DNA from: Amoebophrya sp. A120
Taxonomy: Eukaryota > Protista > Dinoflagellata
Assembly: GCA_905178155.1 (NCBI GenBank)
Contig: CAJINV010000010.1
Coordinates: 3,678,587-3,742,586, forward strand
Reading direction: 5' to 3'
Length of the DNA: 64,000 nt
The position numbers and the translations under genes were made by a program. Shown here piece after piece: positions 1-63,900 of the stretch; the stretch's first letter is position 1; each line of letters begins with the position of its first letter. The notes below the pieces were generated by a model, which was not told the DNA's origin, did no database searches, and saw nothing but the letters and a program-made list of their open reading frames with translations.

Positions 1-3000
1 TGCTCTCGCTACCAGCCGCAGCAATACAAGCAACTTTCCGGCATCACAGATTCCGAACTCTACACAAGATCCTGGTGGACGACAGAGTTTTGCCTCGGTA
101 TGTATTGCAAATATGTGTCTGGAAGGTTGCAACTTGTAATGCTGTCTTTGGATTCTAAAAACATCTGTGATGCTGATGTTGCATGAACAGCAAGAGAAGT
201 TGATTTTGTGCTACGCGGAGACGGCATTTGTCATGCAGTATAGGCATCGGGATTCAGGAAGCCGAAGCCCTGAAAAAGTCTGTGATGCTAGAGCATGCAT
301 CCACAGACATCATGGGTCATGCAAAATGTGCATGACAAGTCTGGCACTCATTTTCCAGACCCTTACATATTTGCAATGCATACTCGGGGCAATCACCCAG
401 TTCCACGTGACAAAGTCCGGGCAGGCGCACGGGTCCAGGATAGGCTTGGGTTACTTGAAGCCGGCGGATTTGATATGCAATGCAAAAGTATCGTACTGCA
501 GTTATGCATCACAAATCCAGATGTTACGCATTACAATTTCCATTTCTGGTGCTGAGGAAATTTGTATTGCAATCACTACTAGCACGATGCTTTGGCAGTT
601 CACATTTGACGATGACAAACAACGCGCTGTTGCATATCAGAAGGAAAAATCCCCCCTCCCCATATCGAAACGGAGATCTGTGATGCAGATTTGTGGTCAC
701 AAATCAGCTTTGCCGTGCTAGAAGGGAAAAGATGCGGACTGTAGTGCCGATTGGCGTGGGAAAGCCTTGCATCTTCAGCATGACAGGAGGCAGCTGGAAG
801 GGGGAAACAGCATGACAAATCGCCTGCAAAGAAGGCCACAACTGCGGCTCTTGGCCTTCTAGCATGACAAGTCGATTTGTGTACTGAAATACAGCATCAC
901 AAATTGCGTTTTCGATATGGGGAGGGGGGATTTTTCCTGTAGATATTGCAAACTGTGGAGGGCGGGACGTGCTCGAGTCAATTTCAAGTTTTCACGGTAT
1001 AGAACACCAGATTGTTCGGAACGGTTTTTGTATCGCGTAAAAATGATCCCGCTTCCTGAAGTGCATGTTGTGAATGCGCGTGCTGGATGACAAAATTGAT
1101 TGGAAATGAAAACAGCTTTCCGCCAAGTGGCTGGAGCAGCAAGTCCCAGTGGGTGGACACGCCTCGCGTGTCACTTCATCTTTTCCACAGGAAACATGAT
1201 GGCTGAGCTTTGGAAATGCCGCAACACCAGGACCAGAAGCAGGCCACAGCGCCTTCGTTCTGTGCGTTGTCGTTCAGATGGCCGGACGCTGTGTCGTGGG
1301 CCCGCTCTTCGAACAGTGGCCGGGCCGCCTCCTTGACCGGGGCTCGACGAGGCCCTTCGCCCGGAAGAGGAGGCCCGGCAAGGGGGGTGGTCGGGGGGGT
1401 GCATTTTTGCCCCCTTCGGAAACCCCTTTCGGGTACCCCTTCCGGGTACTCCTTCGGTAGCCTATGCCGACCCCCTAATCTCCATTGGAAACTGCCGATT
1501 TTGCGTGCCCCAAAATGGTAGCCCAGAGGCAGCCCAAGCGGACCCCCCTACCCCCCCCCTTCGGCACCCCCCCCGGAAACACTTGACTGCTGGTGCGTCC
1601 GCCTCCTCAATATCCGGCGGGCCGGAGAGGGGAGATGAGAAGATATCTGGGCGCGTCCGGAATTGAATGTGGGAGAGGGGGCGCGGCTTCCCGCAGCAGA
1701 GGGCCGCAGGCCGGTGCAAGTCCAACAAAGTGCTGTGGTTTTATTGGAAAAAAGGGATGGCCGGATGGCGGACCGTAGCACCGAAGTGTGGCGCCAACAT
1801 CTACATGGCCAACGGGAAAAAAAGCCGTAGCGACACCCCCAAAAGCCAGAATATTTTTGCCCCCCCAAAATGCGCGCTTGCAAAAATGATGATATTTGCC
1901 GACTTTTCCGCCCTAACAACAAATCAGCTTTCCGCTAAGTGGCTGGAGCAGCAAGTCCCGGTCAATGATGACGACTCCGCAGACGAGCATCTTCGCGGTT
2001 ACGGCGGCACCTTCAACCCGTTGCACGTGGAGGGGTTTGAAGGTCGTCTGGTGCAGAACGAGGCGGACAAGAACGTATCAAATGTAAAAATGGCTGGGTC
2101 TGGAAGAGTTGGAACTTGTGATGCAAACTCTGGAACAGACAAAAATTTGTGTTGCATGAGCGCCAGAAGCTGCCCACTTCAACTTCTTGGTACGCAAGTA
2201 GCAAGTTTCTCATGCGGGACAGGCATCATGAGGCGTGCTCAAAACCTGTGATGCTTTTGCCTGCATCAGACACCATTTGCGTGATCCGAAATATGCATGA
2301 CAAGTCTCGGAATCTTCCAGACCCAGACACTTTTGCATTTCATAGAACGTCTACGGCTGCAACGAATACAAGCAGAAAGTAGAACCCGGGTCCATCATGG
2401 TCGTCAAAAGAGGTAACTTATCAAATGCAAATATGTCTGGGTGGTCTGGAAGAGTGCGCGATTTGTCATGGAGCTTTTCCATGACGCATGAGGTCTGGAA
2501 TGCAGGGCCTAGCATGACAGATTCTGTGCGATCTCTATCATGCGTAGCCTGCATGAGAGACCCCCTCCCGACGTGGTCAAAACCGGGCGACTTTTGGGAA
2601 TCATGCAACACAGAGTTTTGCATGATTCGGATTTAGCATGACAAAATGTATTCTTCCAGACCCGGACATTTTTGCACTGGATATAGCTGCTGGTTCCACG
2701 AGAAAGCGCTCCGGGCGCAGAACGCAGGGGCGAGGGGAGTCATCATCGCGTATTACCGTGAAAAATGCCCCCACGACCCCGAAAGTTTGAATAATTTGTG
2801 ATGCGACCATTGTTCCAAATGAAAACTTTTTGCCATGCATGAAAGGACTGCGAATCTTTCTGATTCGAAGTCTAGTCGTATAGTCAGCATCGCTTGCATG
2901 ACAAGCGCCGCTCTTGCTGGGGTCTCTTGCAATACAGATTTTTGCTATATTCGCGATGGGAAATCTGCGATGCTGATACATGCAAGAGGGCGAGTGTTTC

Positions 3001-4848
3001 CATTGCAAAGTTTCGCAATACAAATGCTCCCAAGTAGTAGTTCTGGGGTGGGGGCATTTTTCTTCACAATATCGCGAACGACGATCGACCCATGGCGGAT
3101 ATCATGGAGGTTTATTAGCGTACACAGATAAAGCTTTTTTGATCTATGAAGTCACTCTAGCATGAGAAATAAATGCTCTGATGCATGGTCCGCATGAGAA
3201 ATAATTGAAGTTCCCAAATAAAAACATGGTTCCACATCCTCTAGGGCGTCGACACGCTCCCGGCCCCCCACATCATGTCCGTGCTGGTTAACCAGCAGCT
3301 GGGGAAGAAGTTACTGGAAATATGCAGTGCAAATATGTCTAGACGTCTGGAAGGATGCAAGCTTTGTCATGCTTGTCTGGCATGACCGAAGATCTTGTGA
3401 TGCGTGTTCAAGAAAGAGACCCTGTTGCCTGTCGTGCAAAGACGCAGTTTGTCATACGGAAAGCGCAACACTAAGCCGCGAAAATATTTCTCATGCTTGG
3501 CTGTGCATTACAGAGCATTCACCGTTCGCAAGCCAGCATTACAAGTTTCCAGACCCAGACGTCATATTTGCATTTGATAGGAAAACGCGAAGGGGAGCCC
3601 GTTCGTCAAAGTGAAAAAACACGTGGATGACGAGGTGCAAACGAAATCGCTGACGACCTTTGTCACGCTGTACTGCAGTTCTGAATGGGACCAACCGGTG
3701 TGTCCGAAGGGCACAACTGTTGAAATTTTCATGGACGACACGTGGAAGCGAGGGGTGGTGGAGAAGGAGCTGCCGGATTTGAACCACCTGCTGATTGTCC
3801 ACGGAAAGCAGGCGGCGGTCGAGAAAGTACTTATAGTTATACTGCGGTTTTCGTAGTCTTTGTCTTGGTCTTGTACAACTAGGCTTCGCATTATAATCTT
3901 CACTGATTTATAATTCATGCCTGTATAATAGCGGTACTGTATAATCTATGCGCAACATTCTGTCGATGACAAAGTCTATCATCTTGATCTCATCGTCATC
4001 TCTTCTGAAAATCAAAGATCGTCCACCGCAACTCCGTGCATCGACTTCCGGATTTCATGCCCTGCACGCCCTCCCCAGTCTATCAAAAGGAAAAATCCCT
4101 CCTCCCCATATCGAAAACGGAATTTGTGATGCTGTATTTGAGTACACAAATCGACTTGTAATGCTAGAAGGCCAAGAGACGCAGCTGTGGCCTCGTTTGC
4201 AGGTAATTTGTCATGCTGTTTCCCACTTCCAGCTGCCCCCTGTCATGCTGAAGATGCAAGGCTTTCCCACGCCAACCAGTACTACAGTGCGCATCTTTTC
4301 CGTTCTAGCACGACAAAGCTGATTTGTGACCACAAATCTGCATCGCAAATCTCTAGTTTGAGTATGGGGTGGGGGGATTTTTCTTTTTGATACAGTCCGC
4401 GTCGAGTTCGTGGAGGAGCCCAAAAACTGCCAGTCCAACATTAAAGTTCACGTTGCGATATGCAAGGAAAAAACTATGTAAGTGTAAGTCTGTGACGCAA
4501 AAGATGCAACACAGCTACGCTTGTCATGCTCCGCATGCAGGATAAGCTCATTTCCTACGTGTTTATTCCCCGTCCTATCTGCGCATGACAAGTTTTTCCT
4601 GTCATAGCAGACAAACTTGTGATGCTGTTTTGGCAAAAGACCTACACTAGTAACACAGTTTTTTTCTTGGATACGCGAGTCTCTGCGGCCACAACAGTCT
4701 GCTCCCGCAGCAGAAGACCAAAACGGAGAAAATCCGCTGCGGCTTACCTGACACGAGTAACCAGCTGGTGCACTATTTGAACCGGGTCGGGAGGAGGTTG
4801 AGCGATCCCGAGGACGGCGGGGAGAAGAAAACGAGGGAGGAGTTATAG
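1..4848 (+). CDS. 5'-truncated ER lectin-like protein: MRH (OS-9/PRKCSH-like) domain interrupted by a PA domain, C-terminal REEL
   Basis: Manual splicing of 9 introners and GT-AG introns 997-1927, 3110-3244 and 3827-4017 gives one frame. It contains WWTTEFCLGAITQFH, LLQTVEGGTC, YGCNEYKQKVEPGSIMVVKRGNCWFHEKALRAQNAGARGVII (PA domain), TTFVTLYC and VEFVEEPKNCQSNIKVHVASLC, and ends KTREEL* (TAG 4846-4848). Confidence 0.75.
99..382. mobile_element. Introner family A
   Basis: TIR TATGTATTGCAAATATG/CATATTTGCAATGCATA; TSD CTCGG. Confidence 0.9.
474..604. mobile_element. Introner family C
   Basis: Left end TATGCAATGCAAAAGTATCGTAC; right end degenerate (CACA); TSD TTTGA. Confidence 0.85.
635..945. 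mobile_element. Introner family B
   Basis: TIR ...GGAAAAATCCCCCTCCCCATATCGAAA; TSD TTGCA. Confidence 0.9.
2076..2344. mobile_element. Introner family A
   Basis: TIR TATCAAATGTAAAAATG.CTGGGTCTGGAAG; TSD GAACG. Confidence 0.9.
2419..2683. mobile_element. Introner family A
   Basis: Family A TIRs; imperfect TSD TAACT/TAGCT. Confidence 0.88.
2751..3071. mobile_element. Introner family E
   Basis: TIR ...AAAAATGCCCCCAC/GTGGGGGCATTTTT; TSD TCGCG. Confidence 0.9.
3321..3579. mobile_element. Introner family A
   Basis: Family A TIRs; TSD GGAAA. Confidence 0.88.
4081..4392. mobile_element. Introner family B (opposite orientation to 635-945)
   Basis: Family B TIRs; TSD CAGTC. Confidence 0.9.
4459..4673. 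mobile_element. Introner, family H-like
   Basis: TIR TATGCAAGGAAAAAACT/AGTTTTTTTCTTGGATA; TSD TGCGA/CGCGA. Confidence 0.85.
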
Positions 4849-7372: not shown

Positions 7373-10300
7373 ATGGACTCCCTCACCGTCGCCACGCAGC
7401 ACGTGATTTCCCAGAGACAGGAGGAGCTCTGGGCGGACGCCAAGATCGACGGACGCGCAGTGTTTTCGAAAAGGGAAAGCTACAAGCTGCACAAACCCAG
7501 ACTGGTCTCCTTGCAACAGGACATTGCGAGAATCTTGCTGCTTGTCCGCGCGAGTTTGAGCCATGAATTTGTTGTTAATACGAGAACTTCCACGAAGAAC
7601 TCCTGCACCAGCAGCAGCAGCACAACCTCCGGTGAATGTGATGCGGACCTCCGGCTGCGAATTGCAGATGAAGCAGCGCCTCCTGTCTCCGAAAACATCT
7701 TTTCCCGTTTTTTTGGCGGTGACATTGGGGTCTTAACCCACGTCGCGAACCATTTAGCCGGCGTTGGCCTAGTGCTGGGGTTTTTCCAGAAGTGCTACGA
7801 ACTCGTTTTGCGGCGAAAGAACCAGAAAAATGATCATGGTGAGCAGCTGGAAGCTTCTGGATCAGAAGGGAAAAATTCAAAAACTCCTGAGGCAGCGCCA
7901 GAAAATAGTACACATCGAATTTCATCCAAGAAGATCAACCTGATCCTCCGCAAACGCCCGCTGCTCAGCGAATCAGAGATACAGCAGAACGAGTGGTCGG
8001 TTGTCTCCAAATTCGAGCAGGACGCTCTGCACGTGTGTGAGGGGAGAGTTGCGTACAACAACCGCAGGCTGCAACTGCATTTGTCGCATCACTACGGCGA
8101 CAAGGTTCTCTGCGACGAGGAGAAGCTGCTCTCGGCGGACTGCGTGCGGAATAGCTTGGAAAAATTGAGCGAGTTTTGCAGTTGCGCAAGACCACCATCC
8201 CCAGGCGGTAGAGCCGCTATATCTTCCTCTTACGTCGAGGGGAAAAGTTGTGATGCAAGTTCCGCTAATATGAAGAGCTCAGCCTCATCCTCAACCACCT
8301 ACCTCTGCTACGGGCAGACCGGTTCCGGGAAAACGTTTACGATGAAGGAGCTTGTGCACGACGTGTTTGGAAAAATGCAAGAACTGAGGGAGGACAGAAA
8401 CCAGGATAACAAGGATCACGTTGTTGACAGCCCGACAGTACGAAATCCGAATCTAAAATGCCGGATGCAGTGTTTCGAGGTCTTGCATAAGCAAAATACG
8501 GTTTTTGACCTACTTTCGCAACGGAAAAAAGTGAAAATCTTGGAGGACGAATTTCGCAAAGTGCACGTAAAGGCGAAGTGGGAGGAGATCGACCTTTGTC
8601 TTCATGCGGGAATGAATGCATCAGAAGGATCAAGATCAACCTCTTCCTGGCAACACGTATTCGACATCGCGTTGCAAGAACGGCTCTCCGAAGCGACAGA
8701 GAGGAACGCAAATTCTTCCCGGAGTCACGCTTTTTTCGTGTTTGAGTTCTACTACGAGGTAGATGGTGAGGAAGATGCTGATGCTTCTAGTGGTGCTAAT
8801 GCTAACGCAACTACAGCAGAAGTTTTTTCTACTTCTGAAAATAAAACTTCCAAGCCGACGTGCGCATACGATGAAATGACCCGCCCGGGCGAACCGCTAG
8901 AAGATGAACCTGCTAAGGTAAAACTCCCACCTAGAAGAAGAATAACCCACACGGTTCGGATTATTGATTTAGCGGGGTCGGAAAGGAATTTCGAAACGCA
9001 GCAAATGACGGCGGAGCAGCACAGGCATTCCGCGATGATCAATTCGAGTTTGATGACATTGAAGACCTGCATGCGGCTTCTAGCGGCGGAGCAAACAGGT
9101 TCCGCTTCTTCTACTAGTGGCGGAGCAGCAAAAATGAAAAAACAGATCACAACGAAAATCAAAATCCCCTTCCGCGAGTCGAGGCTGACGCATTTGCTGC
9201 AGGATTGTTTTCAACAGGAGGAGCAGGAGAACATCAAGAAAAATTATCCCCTGGCAGAACAAGTAGACAGTGTTGATGTTGAGCAGGTCAAAAACAGAAG
9301 CACGCACTGCAGTACGAGCAACTCCCTGATTATCATCGCCTGCATTTCCCCCTCCGCGAGAGACGCGGTGCATTCCCGGAACACTTTGTCCCACGTTTGT
9401 GAGATGGTTTACGGGGAAAATTGCTGCCCGGAAACGGTTTTAGACCTTCCCATCACTCTCTCGGGCCACGATCGGAAGAGGGTGGAAGACTGGTCGGAAG
9501 AGGATGTGCAGAACTGGCTCGGCTCGGTGGCCAGTGGAAGGTTTGTATCAAAAGGAAAAATCCCCCTCCCCATATTGAAAAGCAAATCTGTGATGCTGGA
9601 TTTGTGTACACAAATCAGATTGTCTTGTTGGAGTGGAGGACTGCAGGCCCATTTATCTCATGCCAATGTAGAAAGAGAGGTTTTGGCCTACGCACTTAGC
9701 ATGAGGAACGTCTATACTGTAGGCCCAACAGCATTACAGACCGCCTGCATAATGGGGCGGAGCCTATGCCGTTGCTTTCTTGCAAGACAGACGCGATTTG
9801 TGGCCACAAATCAGCAGCGCAATTTCTCTGAAGCGTGCCTTTTCGATATGGGGGGGGTTTTTCCGTGCGATAGTTTGCGCGGATCGTTTTGCCGGATGGG
9901 TTCAAGGATGGGAAGGGGTTGGTGAAGTTGTGTTGCGGAACTGCAGCAAGTAAAACTTCTGCTAGGCCAGGATTTTCAACAGCAAATAACAGAGTGATGG
10001 ACGAGCAGCAGCAACAGCAAACTTCTGATGCAGAAGTTTCAGCATCAGGATCAGGAACAACTAGTTCTTCCTCTAGCTCCGGCACAACATCTTCTGCAAC
10101 CGCCGCTGGTGGCACGGGGGATGGTAGTGCAACTACTAATACGACTTCTCCGGCTGCTGGTGTGGAACGAGATGAGCAAGTAGAAATGGAAAATCAATCG
10201 TTTCAATTTTACCAGATTTTCGAGACGGACCAGTTGCGTAAAGCGCGAGTCACGGAGGAAGGTGCGAGCTGGAACATCGCGGGCCCGGAGCAGGTCACGA

Positions 10301-10630
10301 TGATCATGGAACTGTTTCGGAATTTGGTTTATCAAATGCAAATATGTCTGGGTCTAGAAGGTTGGAACTTGTACTGCTAGCTTTCCATACCTAGCCCTAG
10401 GAAATCTGTATTGCATAACCAACAAAATTCGCAGCCTCTTTTGTACATGCAAACACGCAGCTTCTCATGCGGATTGCCTATGAGAAAGCGTTGTGGAAAG
10501 TTGTTATGCTAGATTGCATTCGAAACTGTTTCTATCATCCACGTTTTAGCATCACAAGTTTCCAGACCCAGACATTTTTGCATTTCATATGGTTTTGGCT
10601 GAGGTGAAAGCGAACACGGATGATTTTTAG
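7373..10630 (+). CDS. Kinesin motor protein (kinesin-13-like) with a SAM-like C-terminal segment
   Basis: Motifs RKRPL, YGQTGSGKTFTM, NANSSRSHA, IIDLAGSER, IPFRESRLTHLLQDCF and IACISP. Exons 7373-9545, 9878-10329 and 10595-10630 join in frame after removing two introners. Confidence 0.9.
9546..9872. mobile_element. Introner family B
   Basis: Family B TIRs; TSD GTTTG. Confidence 0.9.
10330..10589. mobile_element. Introner family A
   Basis: Family A TIRs; TSD TGGTT. Confidence 0.9.
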
Positions 10631-10647
10631 AAAAGACCACACAACGA

Positions 10648-13274: not shown

Positions 13275-16200
13275 ATGTTGCCCCCTCGTTCTGCTTGTTT
13301 CGTTTCTTCTTTTCTACTTTTGCTGGTGGTAACGCCCTCGTGGTTCCACCTGTGCCTCTATCAACTGTAAAAATGTCTGGGTCTGGAAGATTTTGAGATT
13401 TGTCATGCTTGTCTGACATGACTCAAGAATCTGTAATGCATGGGCACGGAGCGGTCCTCTTTTCTGTCATGCAAACACGCAGTTTGCCATGCGGAACACG
13501 CAACACATAGGAGCCCAAAAAATTTGTCATGCTTGGCTCCGTATTGCAGTGGAAATCTCGGGCACTTTTAGCATCACAAGTTTCCAGACCCAGACATTTT
13601 TACATTTGATAGCCTCGCTGTTGAACCATCAGGGGACGAAGCGTCTGTGGACTATAGCAAGGCTGCTTATCAAACGTAAAAATGTCTGGGTCTGGAAGAT
13701 TGCCCGGCTTGTCATGCACATTTTGCATGACTCCTGATGTCTGTGATGCATGCCCCAGCATCACAGATTTTGTGAGGGCTTCCTGATGCCTATACCGCAT
13801 GACAAATGCTCTTTCCGTGTAGCAAAACTTGGACTCTCTTTGCTGCTCATGCAATACAGATTTTTTTAGAATCCAAAATCAGCATGACAAGTTGGATTCT
13901 TCCAGACCCAGACATTTTTACAGTTGATACTGCTGCTGCTGCAAAAACTTCGTTGGAGAAGAAGGACCACGATACTGACAGTGCGACCAGTGCAACTTCT
14001 GTGGGTGAAACCAGCGGCAAGACAAGTTCCGCGAGCGCCAAAATCGTCGATGCAGAAGAGGCGAAAAACGCGATCTCAAAAATCGAAGAAGGGACCACGA
14101 AAAGTGTAGGAGTTGCCCCGAAGGCTACTTCTTCTACAGCAAGTTCAACACCTTCAAAAGCAGACACGACCGATGCGGGTGCTGCAGATGTGCTGGGGAA
14201 GAAACCTGAAACCTCAGATGGCGCCACCGTGGACATCAAAACTGCGGCACAAAAAGCGGATACTGGTGTGGCTGTGGACAGTTCCGCGGCAAAAACTTCT
14301 ACCGAGGCGGCGGGTCGTCCGGCTGCACCGGCGTCAGCTGCTCCTGTTGCAATAAAACCAGACCAGCAAGTGCTTGCAGCAGCAACGGAGGACCCCGCAG
14401 CTACAAAACCGGCACCGCTTGATCAAGCCGACACAACAACTGCTGCGCCAACGGCCAAGGTACTAGTCACGTCGCCAACAGCTGCACCAGATACAGTCAG
14501 TGCCACCGCGGATCCTGCTGTGGTCCCAACAGCGAAGCTCGAAAGCGTGGCTGGTGCTGTTGCAGTTACAACAAAGACGACCTCCGCTGCAGGTGAAACT
14601 ACAACAACCGATGGCACTTCTTCGGCGACACCTGCGCCGGCATCAACCGCCCCCCCTCCAGCCGAACAAACTACTGCGACCCCCGCTGGAGAGACTACAG
14701 CCGCGGGTGCAGCTGCTGCGTCTGCTGCACCAGCAGCACCTGCAGCAACATCGGCCGGAGCTGTTACAGGGCAAGAAACCGCGGCAACTTCTCCCGCTTC
14801 TGCACCAGTTGTGAGCAGCACGACGGCGCCGGCAGCCGCGGTGGGTGAGACGAAGCCAACGACTGTAACGGTTGCCCCTGAGGACGCAACCGGGGCTGCA
14901 TCTGGGACCGCCACTCCAGTTGCAGCAGGCACTCTACTTCCTGGTGTCACAGCTGCAACTGCCGCAGTTCCGACGGAGACAGCTGTTGCCAGTGCCGCAC
15001 CGGCAGCAGTAATTCCAGCTGCAGCCACGCAACCACCCGCCCCGCCCGTCGCGTCCGCAACGCAAACCCCGCCGACTGAAATCGCATTGGCGACCTCCAG
15101 AGACGAGGGGAAAAGCACAGCCGGCGGAACGGTGTTGAAGCAAGTTGCGCCCCGGGCTGGTGCAGCTCCGCCGGCACAAACGCCAATGCCTCCGGCGAAA
15201 ACAGTGTCGGAAGTAGTGCAAGAAACTCCTTCTATCCGCATCCCCTTAGAACACTCCGATATTTCCCCACACGGTGCGTGTAAGAAGCTGATCCAAGACC
15301 TGTCTTGCGGCGCGGAAACCGTGGACGCGGGGGGGGCAGCTTCTCCACCGAGCACGACGTTCCGCAGAAAGGCCATCTGCATTCGGGAAAAGATGATCGA
15401 GGTGTCGCTTCACAACAAGAACCCCGTGGAAGAGTTGGAAATCAGTAAGCAATGCTTAGCGGAGGTCGAGTCCTTTTTCCTCGAAGCGGGGGAGAAGCCG
15501 TTGCAAACCCTTCCCGAGATCTATCGTGAGGAAAAATTCCCCCTCTCCATACCAAAAAGGGATACTTCTGAAAATTTGCGATGCTGATTTGTGGCCACAA
15601 ATCGTCTCTGTATTGCAAGAAGGCGAATCCAGAGGCATCGCCGTGTTTTGCACGCAATTTGTAATGCTGCATGGCCTACAGAGTAGACATTTGCCATGCT
15701 ACGCGTCTACGTCAAAACCGTTCTGCTTAGGCTTGGCATGGGCCTGCAGTCCCCTACTGCAAGACAGACCTGCTTTGTGTACGCAGATCCAGCGTCAGAA
15801 ACTTCCTTGTGATATGGGGAGGGGGGATGTTTCCTTTTGATAAAATCGCCGCTGCCTGTTCCTCCGTTACGTGTGATTTGCAGGGCCAGGCGGCCAAGGG
15901 GGAGGAGCGGTTTTTCTGTCTGATGCAAAGCTACAAGCACCAAAAATCTTCGGCTGCTACCACGATCTCTGCGGGCCAAGTGGTATCCTCGCACTTGAGC
16001 AAGACCTGCCGCGACAAACTGTACGTATCAAGAAGAAAAATCCCCCCTCCCGACATCAAAAGGGTAAGCTGTGATGCAGATTTGTGCTCACAAATCAGCT
16101 TTGTCATGCTAGAAGGGAAAAGATGTAGACACTGTAGTGCTGGGTGGTGTGGGAAGGCCTTGCATCTTCAGCATGACAGGAGGCAGCTGGAAGTGGGAAA

Positions 16201-26663: not shown

Positions 26664-26669
26664 GATTGA

Positions 26670-47379: not shown

Positions 47380-50300
47380 ATGACAAACAACAAAGCGATA
47401 GACTTGGACGTTGTCCTAACCGCTCCAAGTCGTAGTCGTGACACTGTAGAAATAAAAGACAAAACTGCTAGTACGCCAGGAGAGGAGCAACTACATAGTT
47501 GTGGCCAACAAGAACTTCTATGTGGAGATGATGATCTTGTCGAAAAGGAGGATCTGACAAAGCAAAAAAATGAAGCCAGTAAGAAACCTTCTTGCGGAAT
47601 AGAACAAGCGAGACGGTCCTCCAGTTCAAAATCGGCGGCACAGCACCAACAGCCACTCGCCAGTGGGCCGCTGAATGTCTTGCAGAGGGAGCTGATCTTC
47701 ACGACCAGCAAAGGCGCCACCTTGTCGGAAGACGAGTCGGACGCGGGAGAAGCGATCGTAGGGAACGAATTTTTCACTTCCGACCCGCATATACAGTTCC
47801 AGTCCGACAAGACGAGAAAGAAAGAGCTACTTGTTTATCCAAGTAAAAAAAGTGGTGAAACGACAAGTAGTGCAGCTCTTCCTCTTTCAAGAACACCAGA
47901 TTCTGTTGCAAGGCAGCAACATCGCACGACTTCTACCCCGTCCTCCTCCGTATCGTCCCGCCTTGGTCCGCGTTTACCGCACCACCAGTTTTCCTCCGTC
48001 TTCTCTGCCGCGCACGGAGGGAGCGTCTTTCCAACGGAGGACGAGAGTGTAGTTTTCAGCGACGATCAACAGAGAAGAGGGCGAGGAGCAGAAGTAGATC
48101 ATACAGCGGCCGATCTCTTGTTCTCTCCCGACACCACCTCCCCGTCAGGTGGTGCATCCTCCAATTGGGTCGACCTTTCTCGAGATGTGAGCAGCAACTA
48201 CACAGCGCAAGGATTGGACGAGCAGGACGAGGTCTCGACTTGCACCAGTACCCAGATCGGACTCGGCCGCACTCGAGAACATCCTGAACGGACAAGAATA
48301 AATCCTGAAGAACTAGATTTATTGCATCAGCGGAACGATTCCCAACGACCTGCTAGCACCACCGGCGCGTCTTCAAGAAAGAATAGAAATTCATCATTCG
48401 TCTCTACTAGTACTTCCAAACCATCTACAAGTAGTGGTCCTCGGAGGACTGCTTCGCCTACCCAACCCGTCCACCCACAACTACCCACCACCTCGCCCCT
48501 ACCACCCAACCCGTTTGATAATAGGAGCAGTGGCGTGGTGTTTGACGCGAATTTTTCTTATACCGACACCAACAACACCTCCACCCCTCCCCGTCCGCCA
48601 GAACAGGAGCATAATTCTAGTAGTGGCTCAGCCTCGACTAGTCTCTACGCCAAGCTCGAGCAACTGGAGCAGTACTGCCGCGACCTGCTCGCCATATCAA
48701 ATGCAAATATGTCTCGGCCTGGAAGGTTGGAGCTTGTGATGCTAACCCTGGACTCTAAAAGAATCTGTATTGCATGACCAGCAAGACGAGTCTACTTTGT
48801 GCTACGCGGGGAGGGCATTCGTCATGCGGCTTAGGCATCAGGAAGCCCTCTTCTAAAAATCTGTGATGCTAGGTCGTGCATTACAGACATCCTGGGTCAT
48901 GCAAAATATGCATAACAAACCCGGCAACATTCCAGACCGCGACACTTTTGCAATTCATACGCCAGCATGACGAACCCTACCGACATGATGAACAACCCTG
49001 CGGCGCAAATATGCTGAGTAAAAACGTCCCCGCGCCATAGTTGTCATGCACTTCTGCATGCCAAAAACGTTTCTCATGCGGACCCCTCAGAGAAGCATTC
49101 TCTGTTCGTGTTTTGGAATCTGTGATGCTAGAATCACGATGCTATGCTAGATCTGTGATGCTTCTGAACTAGTCAAACAGGATGACACTACGAGGACAAA
49201 CTTGTCATGCCAAACAACCAAAGCTGGTTGATTTGTCTAGCAGATTTCCCCTCTTGTTGACTCTGGTGTGGGGACGTTTTTAATCAGGATAGCAAAACAG
49301 TACTTCCGCGCTCGCGCAACCGACGCAGCAGGAGCAGGCGCAGTTTCTCGCGTTAACCGCGAACCACTCTGTGGACTTGATCGTCACGAAAATTCGCTCG
49401 ATCTTGCAGAACTCCGCCACAATACGACAGGCGCTGTACTACCGGTTGTTGCGGATAACGCAGTACCTGGCGTGGAAGTTATGCATTGCAAAAGTATAAT
49501 CGCGCTAGTAGTAATTGCATTACAAATTACCTCAGCATGACAAATGGAATTCGTCATGCTGTTTTACATTGGGATGGAGATCTGTAATGCATAAATGCAA
49601 TCACTACGAGTACGATATTTTTGCACAGGATAGAAGTTCCCGACCTACAACGCGCTCCAGAACCTCCTCCACGAAGTCCTTCAGTCCAAATCCATCATCG
49701 TATGGGAGTGCACAACTCCCCCTTCCCCTCGTTTGTATGGCATGAACAGCAATACAAACACAAACACAGGTGGAGCCAATGCGTGAGAAATTTGTGTGCC
49801 TAATGTAGTACTGTTTGGGCAGTTTCCGGAATTTGCCATGCATAATAGTGACGCAAGGAAGCAACTGGATTTGGGATTTTGCATGAGAAATGAGAACGAG
49901 GGGGAGTTGTGCACTGTCATACATCGGCAAGCAAACCACGACGGTGTACATGCTCGGGAAGAAGTTCCCGTCAACCGATGACAAAACTTTCCGCGCGGAG
50001 TGGTGCCGGAAATTTCTGTTCACTTACAGGAAGAACTTCCGGCCTTTACTGCAGATGCCGAACGACAGCTCCACCGCGAACATCACGTCCGACCAGGGCT
50101 GGGGCTGCTACATCCGCACGTTCCAGATGATGCTGGCACAGTGCTACTCCCAGCTGTTTTTCCCCTCCGCGAGTGATCTGGCCCTGCAGGAGCAGATGGC
50201 GAGCGTGGATCAACATGGCAGCCGGCAGAAACAGAACACGGACCCGGAGGAGAGGGAGTTCGTGAAAGAGCTGTTCGTGGACAACGAAAAAGCGCTGTTT

Positions 50301-52747
50301 TCGGTGCACAACTTCTGTCGGGTGGGGTTGCAGAAATTCAACCGAAAACCCGGAACCTGGTTCGGGCCCTTTTCCGCGGCAAAAACCATCGAAGTGATCT
50401 ACGACGAGATACATTATCAAATGCAAAAATCCCTGGATGTCTGGAACAAAGCAACTTCTCATGCTAAATCTGGATCATGTAAAAATCTGTGTTGCGTGAT
50501 CACCAAAAGCTGTCCACTTTTGACCTAATAGAGAGGCAGTTTCTCATGCAGGATAGGCATGGTAGAACTCTCACAGAATCTGTCATGCTGTGTCCTACGT
50601 ACCAGACCTCACGGGCCATGGAAAACCTGCGTGACAGGTCTGGCATTCTTCGAGACCCAGACACTTTTGCATTTGATATACATCACGGCAGTACTAAGGG
50701 AGGTGCGTCCGGTTCCACGGCGTCGACGGCGTCAAGTATCCTGAGTAAGAATGTCCCCACACCAGAGTTGTCATGCAAATCTGCATGCCAAAAAAGTTTC
50801 TCATGCGGAGCCCCATGGGAACAATTCTCTATTCCTGTTTTGGAATTTGTAATGCTAGAATCAGCATGATATGTTAGATCTGTGATGCTTCGGAACTAGC
50901 CAAACAGGACTACACTACGAGGATAAACTTGCCATGCGAAACAACCAGAGGTGGCTGATTTGTCTAGCGGGTTTCCCATCTTGACTCTGGGGTGGGGACG
51001 TTTTTGCTCAGGATATCAAGTTCCACTTCTTCGAAAGGCTCGAGCTCATCTTCAAGTAGAAACACGACGTTCGCACATCACTGCCGAGGTATAGTGCTTT
51101 TTTTATAAGAATCTGGTACGTTGTTCTTGAGAGGTTATGAGCATTTTCTATGTATGCTTGATGCCCTCGAAGTCGAATCTGAGGAAGGACAAACAAGTGT
51201 TTGTCATGCAAAAAACGAGTGACAGCTGTCTTTTGTGATGCAAAAAGAACTAAAATAAAAAAACAGTATGCGTCTTCGACGAATTGTTCGATCCTGACGA
51301 GGTGAAAGGAAAACTCAGTGACAACAAAGCCGTCATCTGCCTTCTCTGCAAAAAACTGGGGCCGAATGCGAACATAGCCCCGGAGTATACGGAGGCCGTG
51401 AAGCAAGTCTTCAAACTCGCCACGTTTCAGGGGCTAGCATGTATATGTGATTTGATTTGTTGTCATCATAATTTCTTCGAAAGAAAAGCGAAGCTTGTCA
51501 TGCACATGACAAAGCATTCTGATGCTCGTGACGTGCCCACAATTGATGGTACGAATCCCGCATGACTACAATCAACCTGAACCTTAACAGGCGGCGACAC
51601 AGCTACGTCAGCGCACTATTTCCTGGCCGCAAGCGACACTTACGCTCTCTACCTCGACCCGCATGTGGAAACAAGGGCCGCATTGTATCGTAAGAAAAAA
51701 CGTCTCCACGACCCCGGAGTCAAGATAGATGGGGATTTCGCTACACAGACCAGCATCTTTTGGCTGTCGCGCATTTGACAAGTTTGGAGGCATCGCAGTG
51801 TAATAAATCGCGTTTAGATGATCATACTGTAGCTGCATCAGAAATCGATCTACTCTTCCTGATTCTACTAGCACGACAAACTGGCAGACACCATGAGATA
51901 GAAAATGCTCCTCATGGGGCGATGCATGAGAAACGTCCCAGGCTTGGTGCAGATTGGCATGACAAAAGTTGGGTGGGGACGCTTCTTCTCAGGATAGATT
52001 GGACGGAGCAGAAATGGACACGAGCAGCTGGCACGCGCTGAAAAGTATAAATATATACTTTTGATGCTATAATTAAGTGTTTTGTTGTAGAAAGTCGCAA
52101 TAGAAACCAGTAATCTCTTGCGTATCCAAGCATGGCAAATTGAATCAAAAATAGTAATGAAAACCGAGTGTACCAGCACATATGAAACCATCTTCATCTT
52201 CAGGTAAAGACGGCACGCCCTGTCTCTTTCGCCTGCCTTTCGAGTCTTTGAACTCTAGCAGTTGCTTCTGCTTCCTCATCCGCGATACCGAAGACCTCGC
52301 GCAGCTCTGCTTGGAATTGGAAATGTACGACTCACTCTCCGAAGCCTTTGAGGTGAAGCGCGGCGGGGTGTTCATGGAAAAACTCACGGGGTCGCTGTAT
52401 CCTCAGGAAATAAAACGTCCCCAGAGTCCAGATGGGGATTTTGCAACACAAGCCTAGAAGTTTTGTTGAGAGTGACGCATGACAAGTTGCAGTGTGTAGT
52501 GTGGTGCGGGGTAGCACGGACAGCCGCACTATAAACCCAGCTGCTCATCCTGTTCAATTATACAGCATTGCAAAATTTTCCAAATGACGACTGGAAATGC
52601 CTATCATGGGCGACATGCGGCGCATCACAAAGTTTCTTGTCATTGCAAATCCGCACGACAGGTGGGGACGTTTTTACACAGGATACGCTGGACATCAATC
52701 AAAAATGGAACTGCGACGACGAAGACGAGGAGATGGTTTTGCTGTGA
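47380..52747 (+). CDS. ATG4: Autophagy cysteine protease ATG4 (peptidase C54) with a long low-complexity N-terminus
   Basis: FTYRKNF, SDQGWGCYIRTFQMMLAQ (catalytic Cys), FSVHNF...KPGTWFGP, YLDPH (Asp/His) and acidic C-terminus DDEDEEMVLL*. Contains 8 introners. The junction near 51089-51266 is unresolved. Confidence 0.88.
48695..48959. mobile_element. Introner family A
   Basis: Family A TIRs; TSD CGCCA. Confidence 0.88.
49010..49291. mobile_element. Introner family D
   Basis: Family D TIRs; TSD GCAAA. Confidence 0.9.
49480..49632. mobile_element. Introner family C
   Basis: Family C TIRs; TSD GAAGT. Confidence 0.88.
49701..49921. mobile_element. Introner family F
   Basis: Family F TIRs; TSD CATCG. 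Confidence 0.9.
50415..50678. mobile_element. Introner family A
   Basis: Family A TIRs; TSD TACAT. Confidence 0.88.
50737..51015. mobile_element. Introner family D
   Basis: Family D TIRs; TSD TCAAG. Confidence 0.9.
51686..51996. mobile_element. Introner family D
   Basis: Family D TIRs; TSD CATTG/GATTG. Confidence 0.87.
52398..52685. mobile_element. Introner family D
   Basis: Family D TIRs; TSD CGCTG. Confidence 0.88.
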
Positions 52748-54606: not shown

Positions 54607-54639
54607 TGCAAAACCGGGGAGGCAGGGCGTTGGGAGATT

Positions 54640-55590: not shown

Positions 55591-55709
55591 TTTTGGTTGG
55601 GAGTTTTGAAAACGGGAAAGAAGTCGCGAAAACGGAAAAAAATTTTGTCGGGGGTTGCAAGATGTTTCTTCTTAGAAATATTGCAAACGGAAAGAGTATT
55701 TTTGTTGGG

Positions 55710-57920: not shown

Positions 57921-60900
57921 ATGGTTTCCTCAAATAATTATCTCCACACGCCGGCGGTTGAGGTGCTTTTCGCCGACATTGTCACAACAGATGAGATATG
58001 CACTGCAAAAGCATCGTACTCGTATTGCGATCCGGCATATACAAATCTGTTTCTTGAGGTAAATCAGCATTACAAATTTTATTTCTCATGCTGAGGAAAT
58101 TTGTAATGCATTTATTTTTATATATACGAGTGCGATACTTTTGCAATGCATATGAGAAGGTTCCGGAGGAGCTGGGCCCTTTGTTGAAAGTTGACATCAA
58201 CGTGGAGATTCCGCTTATGGGAGTGTCAGGGTCGAAACCGACAAAGTTGAAATAATTTGTGATGCATAAAACGGATACCAGTTGGCGCCCAGTTTTCGAT
58301 TGGCCCATGACAAATTTGGGCACAGCCTAAATCCAGTTTGTCATGCTGTTTCGGTAAGGAAGACGCCTTTTGTCATGCTACTTTAGCAGCTCTATTTCTA
58401 CTCCTCAACAGGCTCCTTGCAGTCTGCCTTACTTGCCTACTCTGCAAGACAGGCACGTTGTGGGTTGCATTCTATGCATTACAAGTTTGCCCTCTTTTCA
58501 ATTTCGGTCCTGACGCTTCCATACCGCTTTGCGATCTGGTGGAAGCGGTGGTCGGGAGCATTTCCGTATCAAATGTAAAAATGTCTGGGTCTGGAAGATT
58601 CTGACACTTGTCATGCACGTTTTGGATGAACCCTGATGTCTGTGATGCATGCCCTAGCAGCACAGATTTTTTGAGAGCTTCTTGATGCCTATTCCGCATG
58701 ACAAACGCCCTCTCCGCGTAGCAAGAATTACATTCCCTTTGGCACTCATGCAATACAGATTTTTTTGGAATCCAAATGCAGCATTACATACAAGTTGGAT
58801 TCTTCCAGACCCAGACATTTTTACATTTGATATTCCGGTGGGGAAGAGCTTCTCGATGTGAACGACGAAGTAGAGTTTTGCTCTGATGCAGAATTAGCGA
58901 ACGAGAATTATAACGGCGGGAACAACAAGAACAACATCGAGCAGCAGCAAAAGTTTTCGGCAGGGCAGCAATTATACGGTACCGCCCAGCACGAATTGGA
59001 ATTGCATGATGGTCAACACCTGCAAGAGAATTATGAGCAGCAAAATTACGATGAGTACGGAGACGGACGACCAATCGATAGTGATCCACAGTACACCCAA
59101 GATGGGGACGAAAGCAATTTCGAGCAAGTAGGTGCTGCTGGTCGTGTACCAGTGCACCTGCACCAACCCTACCCCATCGCGGCGGGACATCAACACTTGG
59201 GGAGGGGGGTAAAATCATGTTTTTTGGTGGTTTTCTTCGCCCATGGTGCCGCCGTGGTAAAAAGCGTTACAACCTAGCGCCGCTTGCATGGCGAACGCAG
59301 GTTGACGCGATGGCGAAAGCGAGAACTTCCGCCCGCGCCCCCGCCCTGCCAAAAAGTGTTACACTCCAGGGCCCATGGTATGCTCGGCCGAGCTTTCCGC
59401 CGTGCGCTCCGGTTGCTAGCTTGCAAAGCACGCCGCGCCCGCTGGCGCCGCCGGCCTTGGCGCGGTCCCCTCGCTCGCCCCGGTGGCCCATGGCGTTCGT
59501 GATTTCCACCGGTGCGCCGCGGCCGCCCCAGGCCCGTCGGTTGCGCCGGCCAACCGCCAGGGGCGGGCGCCGACGAGCTGCGCACGCGGGTGCGCCGGGC
59601 TATTCTCAATAAAGAAAAGTTCAAACCAGCGCGCCACCCCTAGCGCCCACCGCCGCCCGCCCGGGCGCGGGCGCGCGCCTCCTCCGTGTGGCCTGCCGTC
59701 CTTTTGTGAGTGGGTATTCGGTCTTTTCGGCATTGGCCGGCCGCACGGGGCCGGGCGGCTTCTCGCCGATTGACTAGCGGCAGGCGCGTTGGTTTTCGTT
59801 TCTAGGCATAACGAAAAAGCAGCGAGGGCGGCACCCAAAACAATCGGCGCCCGGTCTGAATCTCGACAATAGGCATCTATCGTTGGGGCGTCCAATTGTC
59901 GGGATTCAGAGCGAGCTTTGATTTCAAAGCAGGCCGGTTTTAGTTTCTGGCACTAAACAGGAAAAACAATGTGAAAATGCACAAAAAGCGTCGCACCGTG
60001 CCACAGCTTGTCTTCCTGTTGCTAGTTTCAAAGCTGGCCGGCGGCACAGGTGCGCTGGCTCACAGAACCGCTCACGTTGAAGCTGCCGCGGCCCTCTCGA
60101 ATATGGGCCGCGCAAGTCTTTGGCAACTTCTTTGCAAGTTTCCACCTCCATAAAATTGGGGGTCCGTTCCACCTGCACCAACCCTACCCCATCGCGGCGG
60201 GACATCAACACGCCTCGCGTCTGTGTCGTTCCTGTCGCTCGCGCTTCCGCGCCTCCACGCCGGTGTCAAGTTGGGCTAGATACCTTCTTGGCCCCGCAGA
60301 GGGAGACCATACCACGCCAGCCAGAAAAGAATCTCTCGTTTTTTTTGTGAGCCGCTGAGATTTTTTCGATCTAGTGGCACAAGCCGAGCGCGCCTCCGTG
60401 CCGCTGTCCCGTTCGCTGCTCAGTAAGGGCGTTTACCTTCGGGAGGTGCAAGGCTTGCGTGCTCAAATTAGTTGTGATGCCCAGCCGTCTGCTTGGATGC
60501 GCTGCAGACAAGTACACGGGCCGGCGCTGCGCAATTGTTTTGCCACACCAAGCAGAGACCGCCGACCCAGTTTTTTTCGCGAACTGGACGCGCAGCAGAC
60601 AATTTTACTTGGACCCGATTTAACCGCGCATCTGCAGGCGCCACACCGGGCGCCGGAAACAGAGAAAAACTGCAAATAGCTCGGGGCACAGAGTTAAATG
60701 AGAAAATTCCGCGATTTCCGCCCCTGAGTAAAATGAGTTAAATGAGTAAAATGAGAAAAAAGTGGAAAAAAATCAAAAGTCGCAAAACCAACGGCAAAAC
60801 GCCTGTACGCTCGCTGCGCCCTGCCGCGCAAATTAACTGTTTTTTTTCTCCTCCGGGTGGCGGAAAAAAAATACTAAAAAACTGAAATTAAATCCAGCCG

Positions 60901-63900
60901 GGCAGAGCCGTATTTTACTCACAATCGCGGAAATTTAATCGGGCTGCAATTTTTTTGGGTTTCGCGCGGCGTATTTTTTTTTCTATGCGCTTTTGCTTGC
61001 CCAGTGAAAGCCACAAAAAAAATTTGGCGCCGCCGCGCAAACCAACAGGCACGACAAAAACGCGCATCGCTCAGGGCCCTGCTCCGGGCAGCCGAGGGGG
61101 CAGACCCAGGCGTCGAAGCCTGGTAGCCATTTCCGGGGCCGGTGGCCGCGCACCCATTTGGCCGCGCGTGCGGGCTAGTATGTAATGGGGCCGGGTGAGA
61201 GAGGTGCTGTCGCAGAGTTTGGTGCGTCCTGTGTCTCCAGCAGCCCACAACTAACACCATACCGCGACGCCTTGGCACCTGCGAGAAACGAGCGCGCACT
61301 GCCTTGGCCCCTTCATGAAGGAAAAGACGTCTGGGCGGCCTTGGGGGCGGCAGTTTGGCACAACAGAACGCTTCTCAATAGCCGGGGGCGGAAAGTGTGT
61401 TGCCATATTGTCGCCATCACTTTTCATGGGAGCCCGCTTTTCGTTGCCGAAAAAAAATACTCACTTAATCAAATTTACTTTTCTTGGGAATCTGGACCTC
61501 TTGACAGTGCACCTGCACCAACCCTACCCCATCGCGGCGGGACATCAACACGAGCCGGTGTTCATTTCTGAGGAGAATCAGCTGAACGCCACGACTGGGC
61601 AGCAGGTGCAGGAGTCAAGAAATAAGCTTTCGCCGCCACCAGCACTGGACGCGGATGTTGACCACGACACACCTTCCCGCGGCGCTGCGACTGGCGAGGT
61701 TGTTGAAAATACGGTATTATATATCACAAGAAAAATAATTAAGTGTTAACGTTACCGGTTTTATTCACAGATTGCAGTCATGCATCACAAGTGTAGCCCA
61801 ACATACATGCTATGCATTACACATTTTTTCATGTTTTGTGATGCATTGGTGCATCACAAATTCCGTTAACGTTAACACTTTTTGCTGTGATATTGTATCC
61901 CCGGGAATTGCAGATCCCGATTCCGCAGGACGTAGCGGTGATACAGCGGGAGTTATTTTTGCAAGAACAGTACCAAGAAGTATCAAATGCAAAAATGTCT
62001 GGGTATGGAAGACGAAGATTCCGAAATTTGTCATGCTAGTCCGGCATGGCTCTGAACTCTGTAAGTATTGCGTGGCCCCCGCGACGAGCTCCTAACTCTC
62101 TGTCATGCAAAAACGCAGTTTCTCATGCGGAATACGCAACTCAGAACCATGAAAGAGACTTGTCATGCTTGTTAGCAGCGCATTACATTGAGCTCACTAT
62201 TCCCTTCTTTGCATCACAAGTTTCCAGAACCAGACATTTTTGCATTTGATACCAAGAGGACGGAAGCAATTTCGAGCAAGGTGCTGCTGGTCGTTATCCT
62301 GAGTAAAAACGTACCCACACCAGAGTCAAGATGGGGAATCGGCTAGACAAATCCACAAGTTTTGTCTGTTTTGCATGACAAATTTGGATTCGTAGTATAG
62401 TGCTGTTTGAGCTAGCTCAGCAGCATCACAGATCTAGCATACCATGCTGATTGGAGCATGACAAGTTGCAAAACACGACTAGAAAATGCTTCTCATGGAG
62501 CTCAGCATGAGAAACATTTTCAGCATGCAGATTTGCATTACAACTCTGGCGTGGGTACGTTTTTACTCAGGATAGTCGTGTACCAGTGCACCTGCACCAA
62601 CCCTACCCCATCGCGGCGGGACATCAACACGAGCCGGTGTTCGTTTCCGAAGAGGATCAGCATTCGCCGCCACCGGCACTTCAAGCGGATGTTGACAACA
62701 CACCTTCCCACGCCGCTACAGCTGGCGAGGTTGAAAATAGTGCGGTATTATATAATCCCCGGGAATTACAGATCCCGATTCCGCAGGACGTGGCGGTTAA
62801 TATACAGCGGGAGTTATTTTTGGACGAACAGGGAACAAGCGATCGCACGAACAGCTCGAGCAGCGGGAATCCAGCAGGCTTGGCGTCGTCGTGTCCATCG
62901 ATGACGAATAACACAAGAACTTCATCCTCCACTTCCTCCTCTTCTGCCACTGTTTCAACAGACGGGAAAACAAGAATAAATGGTCTGTCTGTGTCTGGAA
63001 ATCCGACAAGTGCAGCAGCAGCTGAGCGTGGAGATGATCCTATCAACTCCCTCCAGTTGCAAGCGCAGCGGGAGACTACTACACGGGTGCGCGAAGGAGG
63101 TTATGATCTTCAAGACGGAAGGGAAATCGGAGTGGAGGATGCAGCTGACAAGGACGACTTGTCGCTCACAAGCACGCCAATACAGCCACGGGAGCTGGTC
63201 ATCCCGGATCCAACGAAATCGCTGCCAGCCGCTAGCAGTTTGATAGCAGCGAGGGCTGGGGCAATCATGAAAACTGACAACAAAAAGCAGGAGATCATGC
63301 CAAGAAGCACTTCTCGGGGCACAAAAACTTCTACTGCGCCCGACCCAACAACAAACCGCGGCGAGAATTGTAGTTCTGAGAAAAATGCTCATGCTGTGAG
63401 TTCATCTGGTGCAGCAGCTTCACATCACGTGCCACTGCAGCTTCCGCCAGATTTGCTGTCGGTCTCAGATAAACACACAGGAGAACGTATCGTGAGTAAA
63501 AACGTCCCCACACCAGAGTTGCAATGCAAATCTGCATGCTGAAAATGTTTCTCATGCGGAGACCCATGAGAAGCAGTCTCTAGTCGTGTTGTGGGATTTG
63601 TGATGCTAGAATCAGCATGGTATGCTAGATCTGTGATGCTGCTGAACAAGCTAAACAGGATTACACTGCGAGGCCAAACTTGTCATGCGCAGCAGCAAAA
63701 GCTGGCAGATTTGTCTAGCAGATTTCCCAGCTTGACTCTGGTGTGGGGACGTTTTTCCTCAGGGTAGAACGAGCTGAGGGAATAACAACCGAAGCATCCT
63801 CCAGTAGTTCCACCTGCTCTGCTAGCACTACTGATGATCATCTTCACGGCGAGAATGTTCAGCGGGAGAACTCGATGAGCACCAGGACGCATCTGGTACT

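What the first reader, a model, noticed from the sequence alone, without database searches (positions are those of the whole stretch)
635..62574. The same introner families interrupt + strand exons in both orientations
Seen: B 635-945 is the reverse complement of B 4081-4392; E 2751-3071 of E 36222-36528; A 99-382 and 43090-43356 of A 13668-13929; D 16499-16790 and 62295-62574 of D 49010-49291 and 63488-63766. All host genes are on the + strand and all frames are restored. Established: spliceosomal donor, branch point and acceptor signals are directional. Inference: recognition relies on symmetric features such as the TIR stem that brings the two TSD copies together, or the two-strand motif. 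This points to structure-guided splicing or DNA-level excision.
Basis: partly seen in the sequence, partly recalled or inferred. Interest (0 to 1): 0.78.

Follow-up and report, generated by a model that had tools for sequence, protein, structure and literature searches.

The report
Reversible hairpin introns without splice signals
Small transposon copies sit inside this organism's genes facing either way and are removed cleanly from the RNA in both directions without the usual splice signals, likely because both ends read alike and would fold into a stem from which a modified splicing machine measures its cuts.

Summary
Observation largely confirmed. The window holds 67 TIR elements (5-nt target duplication, TAT…ATA ends) in + strand genes; six families occur in both orientations (22:25). 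The anatomy matches the published Amoebophrya A120 introners, so the elements are known. RNA contigs skip 19 copies exactly, covering both orientations of five families, together with GT-AG introns; DNA contigs keep them. DNA-level excision is not supported. Neither orientation has GT-AG. Two mismatched duplications fix the cut 1 nt before and 4 nt after the inverted repeat (N-UAU…AUA-NNNN), if one register holds. The paper left this border open. Best model, inferred: a relaxed U2-type spliceosome uses that donor plus the stem. Both-orientation introners are known in Polarella, but with canonical-type sites. 242 oriented copies from a related assembly repeat the pattern. This scan's index showed no earlier finding on such DNA.

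The parts
99..382 (+). Introner family A, orientation 1 (TIR to TIR; strand here is an arbitrary family orientation)
   Evidence: frame
635..945 (+). Introner family B, orientation 1
2751..3071 (+). Introner family E, orientation 1
4081..4392 (-). Introner family B, orientation 2; upstream exon join not settled
13668..13929 (-). Introner family A, orientation 2
15522..15842 (-). Introner family B', orientation 2; TSD mismatch at position 2, RNA piece ends at 15518 (cut after TSD position 2)
16026..16343 (+). Introner family B, orientation 1; TSD mismatch at position 4; RNA joint 16024|16348 with 1 ambiguous base (intron 16025-16347 or 16026-16348)
   Evidence: runs X1, X2; stop codon with any earlier cut
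16499..16790 (+). Introner family D, orientation 1; skipped in RNA
18776..18930 (+). Introner family C, orientation 1; skipped in RNA
19221..19442 (.). Introner, other family; skipped in RNA
19608..19756 (-). Introner family C, orientation 2; TSD mismatch at position 5; RNA joint 19602|19757 with 4 ambiguous bases (cut no later than 19606|19761)
   Evidence: runs X1-X4
19790..20109 (+). Introner family B', orientation 1; skipped in RNA
20397..20669 (+). Introner family A, orientation 1; 3' end AGT instead of ATA, still skipped exactly
20708..21029 (-). Introner family B', orientation 2; skipped in RNA
21116..21381 (-). Introner family A, orientation 2; skipped in RNA
21430..21692 (+).
22770..23020 (+).
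23065..23314 (+).
23575..23731 (+).
36222..36528 (-). Introner family E, orientation 2 (not tested in RNA)
43090..43356 (-).
49010..49291 (-). Introner family D, orientation 2
62295..62574 (+). Introner family D, orientation 1
63488..63766 (-). Introner family D, orientation 2
474..61981 (.). The other 37 introners, by start. A orientation 1: 2076, 34588, 39398, 48695, 50415. A orientation 2: 2419, 38191, 42270, 58567. D orientation 1: 35777, 51686. D orientation 2: 34875, 43738, 50737. C orientation 1: 42605, 57997. C orientation 2: 34400, 49480. B: 43410 (1). B': 9546 (1). E: 40659 (2). A': 3321, 13359, 61981. A'': 41031. H: 39862, 58216. Unassigned: 474, 4459, 10330, 10648, 38966, 39163, 41384, 49701, 52398, 61722
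   Evidence: ends listed
1..3853 (+). Host gene with PA domain (5' part outside the window); 7 introners
7373..10627 (+). Host kinesin gene; 2 introners, a third behind the stop
13275..26660 (+). Host gene with Cys_rich_FGFR repeats, 2277-aa open frame over 22 introners and 2 GT-AG introns
33966..36984 (+). Host Mak16 gene; 5 introners, 2 GT-AG introns
38032..44124 (+). Host choline-transporter-like gene; 13 introners, 5 GT-AG introns
47380..52744 (+). Host peptidase C54 (ATG4-like) gene; 8 introners, 3 GT-AG introns
57921..63904 (+). Host gene without Pfam hit in the two exons tested, 633-aa open frame; 7 introners

Best explanation
These are non-autonomous TIR transposon copies that lie in exons in either orientation and are removed from the RNA with exactly one 5-nt duplication, likely by a relaxed U2-type spliceosome that would read the donor-like N-UAU at the 5' arm and would use the predicted terminal stem to place the 3' cut four bases past it. 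Shown: anatomy, both orientations, exact removal in RNA contigs, absence of GT-AG. Shown for two junctions, and generalised by inference: the intron is N-UAU...AUA-NNNN (1 nt before, 4 nt after the TIR). Orientation does not matter because both arms begin TAT, carry an A-run at positions 11-15 (a U-run when read at the 3' end) and pair in either direction. Inferred, untested: that the catalyst is the spliceosome, that pairing is required, and that the nearly fixed A at -7 could be the branch nucleotide.
For: RNA: 11 of 11 predicted junctions in 15900-21425 appear as joints and no others, 9 introners and 2 GT-AG introns in the same contigs. Ten more copies are removed by exact length sums 288/294/196. 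Register: 16024|16348 with 1 ambiguous base, 19602|19757 with 4; any cut before TSD position 4 makes a stop at 16026. Host GT-AG donors read GTA(T): +3 A 12 of 14, +4 T 8 of 14; 93 and 76 of 132 predicted introns in related loci, with a donor model trained on the window. All nine commonest A120 non-canonical classes in PMC7789003 Table S4 have T as second base. That paper finds U2, U4, U5, U6 and most spliceosomal proteins but no U1 snRNA or snRNP27; loss of SNRNP27K goes with +4 U donors (PMC10581693 abstract). Polarity hint: departures from TAT at TIR positions 1-2 are 1 at the 5' end vs 9 at the 3' end, at position 3 they are 9 vs 3, in 309 oriented copies (Fisher p 0.004). Stem: arms pair in 63 of 66 folds, also 63 of 66 when flipped; private transitions in arms lean to G-U, 175 vs 135, interior 536 vs 540.
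Against: The register rests on two junctions, both with G at +1; Polarella introners use several registers. G at +1 is not enriched (23 of 67 vs 30% background) and the 3' dinucleotide is free, which is hard for a standard active site. The polarity test is post hoc: adding by eye the 10 deviant copies that had been dropped gives 3:12 and about 10:5 to 10:7 (p 0.016-0.036), loci alone p 0.10-0.20, and two 5' ends then lack U at +2. Positions 4-18 of the arms show no 5'/3' difference in composition. Direct arm-to-arm G-U vs A-C counts show no excess (232 vs 211, p 0.34), and the G-U lean comes mainly from two families. 20397 has two of three terminal pairs broken and is still cut exactly. No lariat, branch point or snRNA was seen here; Rfam found nothing in the window.
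Confidence: 0.5

Rival explanations
1. A spliceosome-independent protein machine (nuclease plus ligase) would recognise the TIR stem and cut at fixed distances, as proposed for euglenid nonconventional introns.
For: Same geometry type: Euglena needs fixed spacers, 3 nt before and 5-6 nt after the paired motif (PMC12501133 abstract and section 8); here 1 and 4. Free terminal bases, strong hairpins (z below -2 in 64 of 66, 8 shuffles each, vs median 0.2 for GT-AG introns), no U1 snRNA found in Amoebophrya. A 490-nt foreign insert in 24533 does not prevent removal.
Against: The cut falls exactly where TAT copies +2 to +4 of the host's GT-AG donors; weak 5'/3' asymmetry of the terminal triplet; Fritillaria TIR introns need the U2 spliceosome (10.1101/2025.08.15.670264 introduction).
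Confidence: 0.25
2. Sequence signals alone: proteins or snRNAs would read N-UAU plus A-run at the 5' end and U-run plus AUA at the 3' end; the hairpin would be a by-product of the TIR and not needed.
For: No arm-to-arm G-U excess; departures in the terminal triplet are mostly not wobble-type; arm positions 4-7 often mismatch (position 4: 26 of 67); 20397 is spliced with a broken end.
Against: Families with unrelated arm sequences beyond TAT are all removed, which pairing explains simply; G-U lean of private arm transitions (p 0.027).
Confidence: 0.2
3. DNA-level excision: elements would be cut out of a transcribed DNA copy, as for ciliate IESs.
For: TIR and TSD anatomy, orientation independence. 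The joint table for the DNA-like run was cut (769 rows not shown) and contigs drop rare variants, so rare excised DNA is not excluded.
Against: Contigs that skip introners also skip GT-AG introns. The 8 listed contigs of DNA-like run X5, depth 38-48, show no skip, and most run from exon into element ends unbroken. A second assembly holds 320 distinct elements in place. A -1/+4 cut set by transcript direction does not fit a symmetric DNA reaction (inference).
Confidence: 0.02

Closest known systems
Amoebophrya A120 introner elements (PMC7789003)
   Same: IR starting TAT, then about seven variable bases, then an A-run; short direct repeats (5 bp in Fig. S19 legend); hairpin; non-canonical ends; about 240 nt; co-oriented genes. 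The window is very likely this organism (inferred from anatomy, not from a sequence match).
   Different: The paper says the border position is unknown or variable (Fig. 3 legend) and its four uses of 'orientation' concern genes. Orientation of copies and a fixed -1/+4 register are not stated in the text or supplement text I saw; figures could not be seen.
Polarella glacialis and Aureococcus introner-like elements (10.1101/2020.10.14.339549)
   Same: TIR/TSD elements that make introns in either orientation; some orientation bias.
   Different: There GT/GC/GA donors and AG acceptors come from the element or a constrained TSD. Here the TSD is unconstrained and about 90% of copies cannot be read G[TCA]..AG. 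The Aureococcus case is known to me only through that preprint.
Euglenid nonconventional introns (PMC12501133, PMC11282704)
   Same: Non-canonical ends, terminal inverted repeat, fixed unequal spacers, likely MITE origin.
   Different: Code N3CDG...CHGN5-6|R there, N-UAU...AUA-N4 here; no purine preference seen at the next exon's first base (TSD position 5); circular products reported there, untested here.
Fritillaria borealis non-canonical introns (PMC11282704; 10.1101/2025.08.15.670264)
   Same: MITE-derived TIR introns without GT-AG.
   Different: They have preferred ends (AG-AC, AG-AT) taken from the TIR and a conserved U1; here first and last bases come from a free TSD and U1 snRNA was not found.

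Membership tests
Amoebophrya A120 introner element | Inverted repeat starting TAT, about 7 variable nt, then at least 3 A | tested here: met
   T, A, T in 67, 67, 64 of 67 5' ends; A at positions 11-13 in 58-60 of 67
Amoebophrya A120 introner element | 3-5-nt direct repeat at the exon/intron borders | tested here: met
   55 of 67 perfect 5-nt repeats; 257 of 320 in related loci
Amoebophrya A120 introner element | Repeated families, non-canonical ends, RNA-supported removal | tested here: met
Amoebophrya A120 introner element | Host is Amoebophrya A120 by sequence | not testable with these tools
   No genome held; run names are coded
MITE / non-autonomous TIR transposon | TIR, fixed-length TSD, short, no transposase ORF | tested here: met
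   146-770 nt in the window; longest ATG ORF in any of 309 copies 141 aa
MITE / non-autonomous TIR transposon | Cognate autonomous element or transposase | not tested
   No search made; PMC7789003 reports no transposase in A120, PMC12130899 reports a TIR family with Copia/Gypsy-like ORFs (passages)
Canonical U2-type intron | GT/GC donor and AG acceptor | tested here: not met
   23 of 247 perfect-TSD copies can be read G[TCA]..AG in any register; 3 of 247 are GT..AG at the inferred register
Canonical U2-type intron | Branch point and lariat | not testable with these tools
   Only contigs held the stretch; the two-strand motif has no fixed distance to the 3' end in GT-AG introns
Both-orientation introner of Polarella type | Introns made in either orientation | tested here: met
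   6 window families; 15 of 15 groups with two or more oriented copies in related loci
Both-orientation introner of Polarella type | Canonical-type sites supplied by element or TSD | tested here: not met
   TSD composition near exon background
Euglenid nonconventional intron | CAG/CTG pairing at +4..6 / -8..-6 with 3- and 5-nt spacers | tested here: not met
   TAT/ATA with 1- and 4-nt spacers
Euglenid nonconventional intron | Excision as a circle | not testable with these tools
   Needs excised-intron sequencing
DNA-eliminated sequence (IES-like) | Joined form present in DNA | tested here: inconclusive
   Not seen in the listed X5 contigs, but the table was cut and rare variants drop out

The most novel reading that the evidence does not exclude
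Amoebophrya runs a second splicing code, N-UAU...AUA-NNNN, in which neither terminal dinucleotide is read: any hairpin-ended insertion with a 5-nt duplication is measured from its stem and removed by a U1-less spliceosome with a branch A only 7 nt from the end, or by a new nuclease-ligase. This would make the genome indifferent to TIR transposon insertion in either orientation at any target sequence.
Probability: 0.4. Interest if true: 0.85.

Novelty: new variant of a known kind. Interest (0 to 1): 0.55.

Why it matters
How Amoebophrya removes its majority of non-canonical introns is stated as open in PMC7789003 and PMC11282704. The elements themselves are published, but two things here make the question testable with existing data. 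Mutated target duplications give the true cut position. Copies of one family in both orientations separate constraints that act on DNA (blind to direction) from those that act on the transcript. If the -1/+4 rule holds genome-wide, it defines a splice code with free first and last bases, corrects tens of thousands of annotated borders, and offers a convergent parallel to euglenid introns.

Tried and rejected
Own genome: none held. No holder on record as RNA; X1-X4 are 'RNA?' and were judged RNA because they skip GT-AG introns. Idea that GCATGACAA is a branch point: rejected, it lies on both strands without fixed position in GT-AG introns (the pattern was defined by eye from the elements). Idea that G is selected at +1 or AG at the 3' end: rejected. 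Stop-codon test of register in related loci: none of the 11 loci cases listed was decisive. Arm-to-arm G-U vs A-C test: a trend in the window (92 vs 71) did not repeat (232 vs 211). An apparent 5'/3' difference at arm position 15 was not significant in composition in the larger set (p 0.11-0.16), though private substitutions there were 8 vs 23. Rfam: no match. snRNA alignments in the PMC7789003 supplement are figures and could not be read. The Nature 2016 introner paper was not held. Earlier scan findings: one unrelated note, no look-alike sequence.
Full report
What is there. A self-comparison and end scan of the window gave 67 elements of 131-770 nt. Each runs from TAT to ATA, with arms of about 30-45 nt, and is directly flanked by a 5-nt direct repeat: 55 of 67 perfect, 64 different sequences. 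Removing each element with one repeat, plus 14-16 GT-AG introns found by reading, opens long + strand frames, the longest 2277 aa across 24 junctions. Pfam confirms + strand genes: kinesin, RRP40, Cys_rich_FGFR, Mak16, choline transporter, peptidase C54, PA domain; 15 of 26 exons tested had a hit.

All 11 coordinates are right. With TIRs trimmed off, family orientation is consistent on 135 of 135 edges; families A (8:8), D (4:7), C (4:4), B (3:2), B' (2:2) and E (1:2) hold both orientations. The named pairs are reverse complements at 74-90% identity, except 43090, which faces the same way as 13668. For 4081 and 4459 the upstream exon join is unsettled, and 10648 lies behind a stop codon.

RNA. 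No genome was held. Runs X1-X4 (one sample, contigs only) hold the stretch. On 15900-21425 they show 11 joints: the 9 predicted introners and 2 GT-AG introns, and nothing else; four of the 11 are flagged 'between: not known' because the exon beside them is 28-33 nt. One 2685-nt contig leaves gaps of 288, 294 and 196 nt between pieces, equal to the predicted exon sums over 13 elements, 10 of them new. Bins inside 19790 and 20708 (opposite B' copies) have zero depth in all four runs. Efficiency could not be measured. The DNA-like run X5 shows unbroken exon-to-element contigs in the rows listed, though most rows were cut.

Where the cut falls. Identical duplications hide the cut, which is why PMC7789003 leaves the border open (section 10). 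Mutated ones reveal it. At 16026 (mismatch at TSD position 4) RNA keeps the upstream base, and the other choice is a stop codon. At 19608 (mismatch at position 5) RNA keeps the downstream base in all four runs. At 15522 the upstream base at position 2 is kept. The only shared register is after position 4: the intron is N-TAT...ATA-NNNN. This assumes one register and no strain difference at those bases, and both key cases have N = G. On this register first bases are GT 23, AT 19, TT 13, CT 12, and last dinucleotides are scattered. Table S4 of the paper lists nine predominant A120 classes, all with T second; aligner bias may contribute.

Wider sample. A coding model (57 of 61 correct, leave-one-gene-out) oriented 242; 78 were dropped (53 weak locus, 25 conflicting). 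All 15 groups with two or more copies had both orientations. Pooled with the window, only the 3321 group is skewed, 29:8 (p 0.0008 before correction over 10 groups). TSD bases follow exon background, and 23 of 247 perfect-TSD copies allow G[TCA]..AG in some register.

Structure or sequence. Folding predicts arm pairing in 63 of 66 copies and equally when flipped in place; the terminal three pairs form in 50 and 49 of 66. But the sequence is neutral too: arms read the same from either end. Tests that can separate the two are weak. Private transitions in arms lean toward G-U on the transcript strand (175 vs 135; interior 536 vs 540; Fisher p 0.046), while direct arm oppositions do not. In the terminal triplet, +2/+3 vary less than their partners (1 vs 9) and -7 less than +4 (3 vs 9), p 0.004. 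With the 10 dropped deviants added by eye p is 0.016-0.036 and two 5' ends lack U+2. This fits a donor read as sequence and a conserved A at -7, but it is post hoc. The two-strand motif is 16-19 times denser in elements than exons and about 15 times above shuffles in GT-AG introns, on both strands, without fixed position; it may be a subterminal repeat left by older insertions or a general intron mark (inference).

Mechanism. I favour a relaxed U2-type spliceosome (0.5): N-UAU matches the host GUAU donor at +2 to +4, the paper finds U2/U4/U5/U6 but no U1 snRNA or snRNP27, and SNRNP27K loss is linked to +4 U (PMC10581693, abstract only). The stem would replace AG recognition. Rivals are a euglenid-like non-spliceosomal cutter (0.25), sequence-only reading (0.2) and DNA excision (0.02).

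What is in print. The elements are those of PMC7789003 (seen: abstract, sections 10-12, 16, 32, passages, supplement part 3 and figure legends; no figures). Either-orientation introners with canonical-type sites are in 10.1101/2020.10.14.339549 (passages; its supplements are closed). PMC9860276 and PMC12130899 (passages), PMC11282704 (parts 2-3), PMC12501133 (abstract, passages, section 8) and 10.1101/2025.08.15.670264 (introduction, passages) give the context. Searches listed no paper that I saw reporting orientation or cut register for Amoebophrya; subscription papers are not covered.

Verdict. Real, known elements; the both-orientation behaviour is confirmed at RNA level; DNA excision is unlikely; a probable fixed -1/+4 code is the new part and is directly testable. 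Interest 0.55.

Noticed in passing
window 1109-1962; 59150-61551 (third repeat copy at 60170); 56983-57787: GC-rich inserts of 0.7-2.3 kb between long direct repeats of 42-63 nt (39/42, 47/47, 58/63 identical). The first two can be hidden in GT-AG introns 997-1927 and 59141-61507 because the duplication copies an acceptor. Possibly another mobile element with very long target duplications.
   Followed up: partly
window 24533-25302: Family D copy with a nested insert of about 490 nt containing tandem repeats; still removed according to the contig length sum.
   Followed up: partly
window 34118-34364: A GT-AG intron of Mak16 contains a truncated family B element (34143-34346), suggesting conversion of an introner to a canonical intron or insertion into one.
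   Followed up: no
window 3321, 13359, 22770, 61981 and related loci: This family is skewed 29:8 in orientation, the only clear bias among 10 groups.
   Followed up: partly
window 61976-62256: Upstream TSD carries three extra bases before the TIR; RNA here would tell whether the cut is measured from the TIR or from the repeat.
   Followed up: no
window 10648-10901: Near-perfect hairpin element just behind the kinesin stop codon, so probably in the 3' UTR; whether it is spliced is untested.
   Followed up: no
L001:1359-1507 and L066:1428-1689: If hand-assigned strands are right, these introns start GC and AA instead of N-T; exceptions to the U+2 rule, not RNA-checked.
   Followed up: partly
GT-AG introns, e.g. 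window 38526-38679, 41662-41797, 51089-51266: Carry the same two-strand motif as the introners; 68 of 132 predicted GT-AG introns in related loci do too.
   Followed up: partly
window 53800-56160: Arrays of degenerate tandem repeats of several unit types, unrelated to the introners.
   Followed up: no
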